From the NCBI RefSeq assembly GCF_030013205.1, contig NZ_CP122648.1: a stretch of DNA of 64,000 nt; one strand, written 5' to 3'. This DNA comes from Escherichia coli (GTDB taxonomy: Bacteria; Pseudomonadota; Gammaproteobacteria; Enterobacterales; Enterobacteriaceae). The notes below the pieces were generated by a model. It did not search any database. It was given only the letters and a program-made list of their open reading frames with translations, and was not told where the DNA came from. Numbering within the stretch: position 1 is the first letter of the stretch; every line of letters starts with the position of its first letter. Below, one piece after another: positions 23,860 through 24,110 of this stretch. Made by a program: the position numbers and the translations under genes.

Positions 23860-24110
23860 ACAGCTCGGGTGTCGGTGGCGTCAAAGTCGCTGAAGCGTTC
23901 CCCGAAGGCCGGGGCAGCCCACATGGATGTGGGCTGAGGGCGCGTCTTACAGGACATTACCTCGCGCCCGACCCGGTAGCCGAAGGGGATAAGCTGAAGG
24001 TACCGCGCAGCGGCGATTTTGTTCGCCAGAGCCCGGGGTGCAGGGGGTGGCGGCGATTGGCCGCCCCCTGCACCATTCAATTTATATGGCGAGGCACATT
24101 AAGGGAGCGC
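23860..24110. repeat. GC-rich multi-hairpin intergenic segment between efeU and putP
   Basis: Several stable inverted repeats (gcccacatgg/atgtgggc; gtgcagggggtggcggc...gccgccccctgcac); unlike the REP consensus; overlapping 81-aa ORF judged spurious. Confidence 0.4.

What the first reader, a model, noticed from the sequence alone, without database searches (positions are those of the whole stretch)
23860..24110. GC-rich multi-hairpin element between efeU and putP
About 250 bp of unusually GC-rich sequence with at least three strong inverted repeats (for example gtgcagggggtggcggc...gccgccccctgcac) sits downstream of putP and upstream of efeU. It does not match the REP consensus seen elsewhere in the window. 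It could be another extragenic repeat class, a structured RNA, or a small insertion affecting efeU regulation.
Basis: seen in the sequence. Interest (0 to 1): 0.35.

Follow-up and report, generated by a model that had tools for sequence, protein, structure and literature searches.

The report
Known TRIP1/RRS repeat, full-length copy
The GC-rich hairpin cluster between putP and efeU is a full-length copy of the E. coli TRIP1 repeat, recently renamed "replication risk sequence", so it is a described kind of intergenic repeat, here in a longer form than the truncated copy in K-12.

Summary
Window 23859-24113 is 64% G+C, and both strands fold far better than shuffled sequence (z about -4.5). It lies 41 nt after the putP stop codon and about 357 nt before efeU.

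It is not a new repeat class. It belongs to the TRIP1 family (Rudd 1999; Li et al. 2024), which is the same element as the RRS of Pham, Cox and Goodman. It is 90% identical to K-12 TRIP1a/RRS-lysO and occupies the published TRIP1b locus. K-12 carries a derivative there that lacks about 124 nt. The window copy is full length but lacks 11 nt. Both deletions lie between short direct repeats.

About 17% of complete E. coli genomes have a full-length copy at this locus. The copy keeps a near-canonical G-quadruplex motif, the highest G4Hunter score in the window. GC skew puts that strand on the leading-strand template, opposite to the canonical RRS. From published work I expect weak or no replication-gap formation.

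Across Escherichia, Klebsiella and Citrobacter, 26 of 66 base pairs covary. Citrobacter copies keep the hairpins but lose the G-runs.

There is no evidence for an RNA gene, a coding ORF, mobility or a role in efeU regulation. Verdict: already known, low interest.

The parts
23859..24113 (+). Full-length TRIP1/RRS-family repeat at the TRIP1b (putP-efeU) locus. The + strand is the G-rich 'G4' strand.
   Evidence: It is 90.2% identical over 215 nt to K-12 TRIP1a/RRS-lysO, 86.2% over 253 nt to K-12 TRIP1c/RRS-dusC, and 96.3% over 214 nt to the aqpZ-lysO copy of strain EC01307. A family profile matches 23856-24117 with E = 2.6e-69. The 41-nt distance from the putP stop codon equals the published position of TRIP1b.
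24035..24053 (+). G-quadruplex-type motif GGGGTGCAGGGGGTGGCGG, a variant of the published RRS motif GGGGGTGCAGGGGGCGGCGG.
   Evidence: G4Hunter scores 1.80, the highest in the 64-kb window, against 1.84 for the K-12 RRS. The published motif is quoted. There are two differences: one G fewer in the first run, and C to T.
24037..24074 (+). Terminal 15-bp hairpin (family helix 11), re-formed in this allele with the distal CCCTGCACC after an 11-nt deletion.
   Evidence: Repeat I1. In the family alignment, 9 of the 12 pairs of helix 11 show compensatory changes.
23915..23936 (+). Perfect 10-bp hairpin CAGCCCACAT/ATGTGGGCTG (family helix 6).
   Evidence: Repeat I3. The hairpin is kept through A-T to G-C and other double changes in Klebsiella, Citrobacter and TRIP1d copies.
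23907..23914 (+). Direct repeat GGCCGGGG, the left end point of the roughly 124-nt segment that K-12 TRIP1b lacks.
   Evidence: Direct-repeat family D1 has a spacing of 124. The K-12 deletion junction falls on these repeats.
24031..24038 (+). Direct repeat GCCCGGGG, the right end point of the segment deleted in K-12.
24104..24110 (+). GGAGCGC, the 3' arm of family helix 12. It is orphaned here because its partner GCGCTCC is lost in the 11-nt deletion (CCCTGCGCGCT, between two CCCTGC repeats).
   Evidence: Helix 12 is supported by covariation: GCGCTCC/GGAGCGC in Escherichia and Klebsiella against CGTTCAC/GTGAACG in Citrobacter. The window row is gapped at the 5' arm.

Best explanation
The element is a full-length member of the TRIP1 repeat family, the same element as the RRS 'replication risk sequence', and it sits at the known TRIP1b locus just downstream of putP. 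This identification is shown here.

The likely mode of action is inferred from published work on the K-12 copies. It acts as DNA rather than as a gene. When the duplex is unwound at a replication fork, its strands fold into a stable multi-hairpin structure, with a possible G-quadruplex on the G-rich strand. That structure can stall the lagging-strand polymerase and leave a transient single-stranded gap.

In this copy the G-rich strand is the leading-strand template. Only the weaker C-rich strand is therefore exposed on the lagging-strand template. I expect at most partial gap formation, and possibly none detectable in vivo.

The copy also provides about 250 bp of homology in inverted orientation to the aqpZ-lysO copy about 149 kb away, which could serve as a substrate for inversions.

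The K-12 allele (146-bp TRIP1b) and the window allele (11 nt missing) both look like slippage deletions between short direct repeats inside a longer ancestral copy.
For: Identity and locus. The element is 86-96% identical to the named K-12 and other E. coli copies. It lies 41 nt after the putP stop codon, as published for TRIP1b. G+C is 64%, within the published 62-65%. Nearly every complete E. coli genome carries copies of the family, with a median of 3 places per genome. The K-12 alignment shows the same element with about 123 nt missing from the centre.

Alleles at the locus. 947 of 5426 genomes hold at least 80% of the intergenic region and so have a full-length copy; 351 records are at least 99% identical. 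A further 2614 genomes are K-12-like; this is my subtraction of 947 from the 3561 genomes. Full-length alleles that keep the 11 nt also exist, for example L012 and L013.

Structure. Fold z-scores are -4.5 and -4.4. Of 66 consensus pairs, 26 show compensatory changes, and 99.3% of cells are paired against 36-45% when partners are slid by 1-3 columns.

Which strand folds. In the G-strand orientation there are 67 G.T cells against 10 A.C cells (17 against 7 pairs, p = 0.064), which points to the G strand as the one under selection.

G4 motif. G4Hunter scores 1.80, the highest in the window.

Orientation. GC skew of the window + strand is -0.029. The aqpZ-lysO copy in a genome identical to the window over 1301 nt is on the other strand. 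Applying the same logic to K-12 reproduces the published lagging-template orientation of RRS-lysO.

Mechanism, from the literature. RRS with the G4 strand on the lagging template triggers gaps wherever it is placed, and inverted RRS gives no RecA/SSB peak in vivo. In vitro, the inverted orientation still gives gaps in about 66% of encounters through the C strand.
Against: No experiment exists for this allele or this locus. All mechanistic statements are transferred from the K-12 copies at lysO and dusC.

The G4 motif differs at two positions, helix 12 is lost, and the orientation is the one that gave no RecA/SSB signal in vivo. The copy may therefore be functionally silent.

The locus is dispensable. 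About 48% of genomes carry the centre-deleted form, and about 34% carry no TRIP1 between putP and efeU.

All 15 Citrobacter copies lack the G-runs (G4Hunter at most 1.2) yet keep the hairpins. The G-quadruplex may therefore not be the conserved functional feature.

Covariation of this strength is also what a structured RNA would show.
Confidence: 0.85

Rival explanations
1. It is the gene for a structured non-coding RNA transcribed from the G-rich (+) strand, and the conserved multi-helix fold is an RNA fold.
For: There is strong covariation in 12 helices across three or four genera. G.U-type wobbles are concentrated on one strand. Li et al. also suggest that TRIP1 may be transcribed. On the + strand, the terminal hairpin followed by ATTCAATTTA scores as terminator-like in this allele.
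Against: No Rfam family matches, even at E up to 10. No sigma-70-like promoter is found on either strand of 23400-24300. The terminator-like tail is specific to this allele, because other copies continue with GCGCTCC. The flanks upstream of the G-strand 5' end differ between loci. In K-12, the two experimentally studied copies have a consistent orientation relative to replication, not transcription. The published activity is reproduced with purified DNA replication proteins.
Confidence: 0.08
2. It is a 3'-UTR element of putP that acts like REP sequences: a stable RNA structure on the putP-sense (-) strand that protects the mRNA from 3' exonucleases, or insulates putP from efeU transcription.
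For: It starts 41 nt after the putP stop codon. All five published TRIP1 loci lie 38-96 bp downstream of a stop codon. No convincing intrinsic terminator for putP lies before it: the scan finds none, and the candidate hairpin folds no better than shuffles (z -0.15). The - strand also folds very stably.
Against: At the aqpZ-lysO locus the element occurs in both orientations in different strains (Li et al.). In K-12 the aqpZ transcript would carry the C strand, while the dusC transcript would carry the G strand. The wobble asymmetry favours the G strand, which at this locus is antisense to putP. Alleles without any TRIP1 have an ordinary terminator instead.
Confidence: 0.1
3. It is a relic of a non-autonomous mobile element (MITE-like) that spread among Enterobacteriaceae and has no function at this site.
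For: There are multiple copies per genome at different loci: 1-9 places in E. coli, and 12 in one K. pneumoniae chromosome. Sub-families are genus-specific, with near-identical copies within a genome. Presence is variable at the putP-efeU, alx-sstT and copA-ybaP loci. A tandem pair occurs in Klebsiella.
Against: No terminal inverted repeats are evident. No target-site duplication can be defined, because at both loci examined the TRIP1-bearing allele is a whole replaced intergenic block rather than a clean insertion. No match was found in the phage collection, and the only matches in the plasmid collection lie in chromosome-like records or in segments carrying chromosomal genes. No linked transposase is seen. 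Compensatory evolution of 26 pairs implies selection on the fold. Loss of both K-12 copies is conditionally lethal according to Pham et al..
Confidence: 0.12
4. It is an insertion that changes efeU regulation, or it encodes the 81-aa ORF at 23835-24080 (-).
For: It lies upstream of efeU. PGAP occasionally calls a hypothetical protein in this spacer.
Against: The element is about 357 nt from the efeU start. The efeU-proximal roughly 130 nt, with a Fur-box-like AATGATAATCGCTATCA, are conserved in alleles with and without TRIP1. The ORF has no Pfam match. Natural alleles differ by indels of 124, 11 and 1 nt that would destroy any reading frame.
Confidence: 0.03

Closest known systems
TRIP1b of E. 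coli K-12 (Rudd 1999; Li et al. 2024, PMC10888264)
   Same: It occupies the same locus at the same distance (41 nt) from the putP stop codon, in the same orientation. The two ends of the element are nearly identical.
   Different: K-12 TRIP1b is 146 bp and lacks about 124 nt of the centre. The window copy has the centre but lacks 11 nt (CCCTGCGCGCT) that K-12 retains. Li et al. describe only the truncated form as TRIP1b.
TRIP1a / RRS-lysO and TRIP1c / RRS-dusC of K-12 (Pham et al. 2023, 2024; Kusi-Appauh et al. 2026)
   Same: Identity is 90% and 86% over the full core. The predicted multi-helix fold is the same. The G-rich motif is near-canonical, with an almost equal G4Hunter score.
   Different: The G strand is on the leading-strand rather than the lagging-strand template. 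The copy does not sit at the symmetric positions about 650 kb from dif: it lies about 149 kb from the lysO copy in the source genome. On K-12 coordinates it falls between RRS-lysO and dif. The motif has two changes, and helix 12 is lost. There are no functional data.
REP/BIME elements
   Same: Both are GC-rich, palindromic and intergenic, often lie just downstream of stop codons, occur in multiple copies, and are implicated in DNA topology.
   Different: REP units are about 35-40 nt with a different consensus and occur in hundreds of copies. TRIP1 is about 250 nt, has 12 helices and occurs in 1-9 copies. A separate REP lies at 23705-23741.
Neisseria gonorrhoeae pilE G4
   Same: According to Pham et al. 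and Kusi-Appauh et al., it is the only other bacterial sequence element reported to trigger replication-associated gaps through a G-quadruplex.
   Different: It is an unrelated sequence: a short canonical G3 motif that depends on a promoter and sRNA, not a 250-nt multi-hairpin repeat. This comparison rests on the cited papers and on general knowledge, and was not tested here.

Membership tests
TRIP1 repeat family (Rudd 1999; Li et al. 2024) | Sequence homology to TRIP1a (published members share 84-94% identity) | tested here: met
   Identity is 90.2% over 215 nt to K-12 TRIP1a and 86.2% over 253 nt to K-12 TRIP1c. A profile built from 41 family members matches with E = 2.6e-69.
TRIP1 repeat family (Rudd 1999; Li et al. 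2024) | GC-rich (62-65%) with a very stable predicted branched ('double-Y') fold | tested here: met
   G+C is 64%. DNA fold energies are -68.6 and -63.3 kcal/mol, z about -4.5. The consensus is a multi-branch structure.
TRIP1b type specifically | [quoted passage not shown] | tested here: met
   The element ends at 24113 and the putP stop codon starts at 24155, leaving 41 nt. About 357 nt separate it from the efeU ATG at 23501. The G strand is opposite to putP, as in K-12.
TRIP1b type specifically | 146-bp partial form lacking the internal 125 bp of TRIP1a | tested here: not met
   The window copy contains the centre. It is a full-length allele at the TRIP1b locus, so it belongs to the family and the locus but not to the truncated form.
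RRS, replication risk sequence (Pham et al.) | About 222-bp GC-rich repeat homologous to RRS-lysO and RRS-dusC | tested here: met
   The whole core aligns, apart from an 11-nt deletion and scattered substitutions.
RRS, replication risk sequence (Pham et al.) | G4-forming sequence GGGGGTGCAGGGGGCGGCGG on one strand only | tested here: inconclusive
   The variant GGGGTGCAGGGGGTGGCGG is present, with G4Hunter 1.80 against 1.84 for K-12 and no motif on the other strand. Whether the variant folds into a quadruplex was not testable.
RRS, replication risk sequence (Pham et al.) | [quoted passage not shown] | tested here: not met
   The window + strand, which carries the G4 motif, has a GC skew of -0.029, so it is the leading-strand template. 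It is inverted relative to the lysO copy of the same genome.
RRS, replication risk sequence (Pham et al.) | One of a pair placed symmetrically about 650 kb either side of dif, at the edges of the Ter macrodomain | tested here: not met
   It lies about 149 kb from the aqpZ-lysO copy in the source genome. In K-12, putP is at 1.08 Mb and RRS-lysO at 0.915 Mb. The position of dif comes from the papers and from general knowledge.
RRS, replication risk sequence (Pham et al.) | Triggers post-replication ssDNA gaps with RecA/SSB loading, and blocks DNA polymerases | not testable with these tools
   This needs ssGap-seq or primer extension on this allele.
Rfam RNA families | Match to a curated covariance model | tested here: not met
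   There is no hit to the element above noise (best E = 1.8, for Pxr). The only suggestive hit is the REP at 23705-23741.

The most novel reading that the evidence does not exclude
The conserved feature of the TRIP1/RRS family may be the 12-helix fold of the G-rich strand rather than the G-quadruplex. Citrobacter copies keep every helix by compensatory change but lose the G-runs.

On this reading, naturally occurring extra full-length copies such as this one, found at this locus in about 17% of complete E. coli genomes, would be active structure-forming elements. They could act as weaker, inverted gap triggers, or as back-ups that make the canonical lysO/dusC pair dispensable in those strains. 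They would also form a 149-kb inverted-repeat pair that could invert part of the right replichore.
Probability: 0.25. Interest if true: 0.5.

Novelty: already known. Interest (0 to 1): 0.2.

Why it matters
For annotating this window, the finding can be labelled as a TRIP1/RRS repeat at the TRIP1b locus and closed.

For the RRS field there are two small additions:
- Many natural E. coli strains carry a third, full-length RRS-like copy in the inverted orientation, close to RRS-lysO. K-12, where all experiments were done, has only a centre-deleted remnant there. Results on essentiality and topology obtained in K-12 may therefore not transfer directly to such strains.
- Cross-genus covariation supports a specific multi-helix fold of the G strand. 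The G-runs are not universally conserved, which bears on whether the quadruplex or the hairpins block the polymerase.

Tried and rejected
- Rfam search of 23400-24400 at E up to 10 found nothing for the element, only a partial REP/naRNA4 hit next to it.
- The phage collection gave no match.
- In the plasmid collection, the matches I examined lie in chromosome-size records filed as plasmids or in segments carrying chromosomal genes; no mobile-element context was seen.
- The promoter scan found no site. The terminator scan flagged only the element's own terminal hairpin on the + strand, and that tail is specific to this allele.
- I looked for a putP terminator upstream of the element. The candidate hairpin folds no better than shuffles, so I make no claim.
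- I looked for clean filled-versus-empty sites to define ends and target duplications, at putP-efeU and at alx-sstT. In both, the TRIP1-bearing allele is a replaced intergenic block, so mobility could be neither shown nor excluded.
- The 81-aa ORF has no Pfam hit and is incompatible with the natural indels.
- The exact-pattern scan of species-representative genomes returned only 34 loci (Escherichia, Klebsiella, Citrobacter, Pseudocitrobacter and a few MAG contigs). It would miss diverged sub-families such as TRIP1d, so it is not a census.
- I did not locate the dusC copy or the remaining copies in the source genome.

Full report
**Observation.** G+C rises to 0.61-0.66 between about 23850 and 24100, against 0.35-0.49 in the rest of the putP-efeU spacer. 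Folded as single-stranded DNA, the + strand reaches -68.6 kcal/mol (z = -4.52) and the - strand -63.3 kcal/mol (z = -4.43) relative to dinucleotide shuffles. The neighbours are putP (24155-25663, - strand) and efeU (22671-23501, - strand). A REP-like hairpin is a separate object at 23705-23741. No second copy exists in the window.

**What it is.** A search of 5426 complete E. coli genomes showed that about 213 nt of the spacer (window 23859-24071) recurs at other chromosomal places, with a median of 3-4 places per genome. The best K-12 match lies between lysO and aqpZ. A literature search on these genes led to the TRIP1 repeat family. Rudd defined it in 1999, and Li et al. surveyed it in 6725 genomes in 2024 (PMC10888264). 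The same element was named RRS, 'replication risk sequence', by Pham, Cox, Goodman and colleagues (PMC10287960, PMC10592627, bioRxiv 10.64898/2026.06.16.732529).

The window element is 90.2% identical to K-12 TRIP1a/RRS-lysO over 215 nt and 86.2% identical to TRIP1c/RRS-dusC over 253 nt. Its G+C is 64%, within the published 62-65%. It ends 41 nt after the putP stop codon, exactly the published position of TRIP1b. Alignment with family members extends the limits to 23859-24113.

**Relation to K-12.** At the same position K-12 has the two ends of the element but lacks about 123-125 nt of the centre, and it has 11-12 extra nt in the terminal hairpin region. The central deletion runs between the direct repeats GGCCGGGG (23907-23914) and GCCCGGGG (24031-24038), which are 124 nt apart. 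The 11 nt missing from the window copy (CCCTGCGCGCT) lie between two CCCTGC repeats in other alleles. Full-length alleles that keep both segments exist, for example in O111:H8 and in NT1W22. The simplest reading, which is an inference, is that the K-12 and window alleles are independent slippage deletions of a longer ancestor. A similar central deletion has occurred at the aqpZ-lysO locus in another strain.

**Alleles in the population.**
- 947 of 5426 genomes have a full-length copy at this locus; 351 records are at least 99% identical to the window.
- 3561 genomes cover at least 80% of a 1301-nt query. Subtracting the 947 full-length genomes gives about 2614 with the K-12-type form.
- The remaining genomes have no TRIP1 here. 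Some carry a short unrelated spacer with its own terminator. The O157-type arrangement has a 1344-nt hypothetical ORF instead.

Li et al. describe TRIP1b only as the 146-bp form. The full-length allele is therefore a variant they do not describe, within a described family and locus.

**Structure.** I collected 41 copies from Escherichia, Klebsiella, Citrobacter and Pseudocitrobacter. RNAalifold predicts 66 pairs in 12 helices, and 26 pairs show compensatory double changes. On that structure 99.3% of cells are paired, against 36-45% when the 3' partners are slid by 1-3 columns. The slid controls show only 3-6 pairs with double changes. The fold is therefore under selection.

In the G-strand orientation there are 67 G.T cells in 17 pairs, against 10 A.C cells in 7 pairs (pair-level binomial p = 0.064). 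This suggests that the G-rich strand is the one that must fold, although related sequences inflate the cell counts. In the window copy all helices are intact except helix 12, whose 5' arm is removed by the 11-nt deletion.

**G-quadruplex motif and orientation.** Pham et al. attribute polymerase blockage to GGGGGTGCAGGGGGCGGCGG. The window has GGGGTGCAGGGGGTGGCGG at 24035-24053 on the + strand. Its G4Hunter score of 1.80 is the highest in the 64-kb window; the K-12 copies score 1.84.

The + strand of the window has a GC skew of -0.029, negative in 6 of 8 blocks. It therefore has the composition of the lagging nascent strand, which makes it the leading-strand template. Two checks support this reading:
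- The same reasoning places the K-12 lysO copy's G strand on the lagging-strand template, as published.
- In a genome identical to the window over 1301 nt (NZ_CP028192.1), the aqpZ-lysO copy lies about 149 kb away on the opposite strand, in a region with the same skew sign.

The window copy is thus inverted relative to a canonical RRS. This matches the statement by Li et al. that all TRIP1b copies are in the 'reverse direction'.

**How it most likely works.** What is shown is that the element belongs to the TRIP1/RRS family and has a conserved, very stable fold. What is transferred from published experiments on the K-12 copies is the following:
- RRS with the G strand on the lagging-strand template stalls lagging-strand synthesis and leaves gaps of about 0.3-2 kb that load SSB and RecA, at whatever site it is placed.
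- Inverted RRS gave no RecA/SSB peak in vivo but still complemented loss of the native copies.
- In single-molecule assays, the inverted orientation still produced gaps in about 66% of encounters, through the C strand.

My inference is that this copy is at most a weak gap trigger and may be silent. It is also a substrate for homologous recombination with other TRIP1 copies; Li et al. report a few TRIP1a/1b rearrangements. Its frequent deletion or absence shows that it is dispensable at this locus.

**An observation relevant to the published mechanism.** All 15 Citrobacter copies, one K. aerogenes copy and one copy from a Klebsiella metagenome assembly lack the G5 runs, with G4Hunter at most 1.2. 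They nevertheless keep helix 11 through compensatory changes, for example GTAAAGGGCG...CGCCCTTTAC. Across the family, the hairpins rather than the G-runs are what is conserved. This does not contradict the E. coli experiments. It does suggest that the quadruplex may not be the universal feature.

**Rivals.**
- A structured RNA gene is not excluded by the covariation. However, it has no Rfam match, no promoter-like site and no consistent flanks, and the published activity is reproduced with DNA and replication proteins alone.
- A putP 3'-UTR role fits the position just after a stop codon, as at all five published loci. It conflicts with the variable orientation at aqpZ-lysO and with the wobble asymmetry.
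- A mobile-element origin fits the copy-number variation and the genus-specific sub-families. I found no terminal inverted repeats and no definable target duplication. At both loci examined, the TRIP1-bearing allele is a replaced block rather than a clean insertion.
- An effect on efeU regulation is unlikely. The efeU-proximal roughly 130 nt, with a Fur-box-like sequence, are the same in alleles with and without TRIP1.
- The 81-aa ORF has no family match and cannot survive the natural indels.

**Verdict.** That class, and this locus, are already in the literature. The only new points are modest: the full-length allele at the TRIP1b locus and its frequency, the slippage origin of the K-12 form, the inverted orientation relative to replication, and the family-wide covariation with loss of G-runs in Citrobacter. 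Novelty: already known. Interest: low (0.2).

Noticed in passing
window 23705-23741 (- strand): A REP-type hairpin (GCCGGATAAGGCGTTTACGCGGCATCTGGC-like) gives a partial match to Rfam naRNA4 (27.2 bits, E = 0.014, below the gathering score). It lies in the same spacer as the TRIP1 copy but is separate from it.
   Followed up: partly
window 23557-23580; efeU 22671-23501 (-): A Fur-box-like sequence (rc: AATGATAATCGCTATCACTGCGATT) lies about 60-80 nt upstream of efeU and is conserved in all spacer alleles examined. efeU is an intact ORF here and is annotated as a full-length 831-nt CDS in the matching genomes, whereas it is a pseudogene in K-12.
   Followed up: partly
L002 2501-2715 versus L003 2501-2714 (aqpZ-lysO spacer): The TRIP1a copy is in opposite orientations in K-12 and in strain EC01307, and each orientation has its own allele-specific flanking sequence. 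This looks like replacement of the whole spacer block rather than a simple flip. Li et al. report both orientations but do not explain them.
   Followed up: partly
L005 4001-4133 (aqpZ-lysO segment on a 42-kb record annotated as a plasmid): The aqpZ-lysO copy carries an internal deletion of about 120 nt, similar to the one that defines K-12 TRIP1b. This indicates recurrent loss of the structured centre. The 'plasmid' carries chromosomal genes (macA, ybjX, ybjD, aqpZ, lysO, hcp).
   Followed up: partly
L007 2564-2767 and 3001-3204 (K. pneumoniae, between pcaC and a mechanosensitive channel gene): Two Klebsiella-type copies lie in direct tandem, 437 nt apart, in one spacer. One K. pneumoniae chromosome-size record has 12 places, many more than E. 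coli.
   Followed up: no
Citrobacter loci L008, L014-L016, L019-L021, L029-L032, L035, L043, L044, L047; also L009 and L026: These copies have no G5 runs (G4Hunter at most 1.2) but retain the terminal hairpin and helix 12 through compensatory changes. They also carry a 13-nt insertion near the 5' end.
   Followed up: yes
L050 (strain E8, alx-sstT spacer; TRIP1d): The TRIP1d copy sits in a block of about 430 nt that replaces about 210 nt of the K-12 spacer. Its helix 6 reads CGACGCGCAT/ATGCGCGGCG, several compensatory changes away from the other E. coli copies. My exact-pattern scan would have missed this sub-family.
   Followed up: partly
L011 641-1984 (O157:H7 FRIK2455, putP-efeU spacer): In O157-type genomes the spacer contains a 1344-nt hypothetical protein gene on the opposite strand instead of the TRIP1 block.
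   Followed up: no
L017, L018 and L028 (MAG contigs labelled Desulfacinum sp., Proteobacteria bacterium and Sporobacter termitidis): Contigs in unrelated metagenome-assembled genomes carry Klebsiella-type or E. coli-type TRIP1 copies. This most likely reflects enterobacterial contamination or mis-binning.
   Followed up: no
window 10224-10256 and 35973-35997: These are the next-strongest G4Hunter windows after the TRIP1 motif: a C-rich run (ACCCATTTACCCCTCCCCTTTAC, -1.68) and GGGGCGGGCATTCGTGGGCGATGGGC (+1.64). The latter has four G3+ runs.
   Followed up: no
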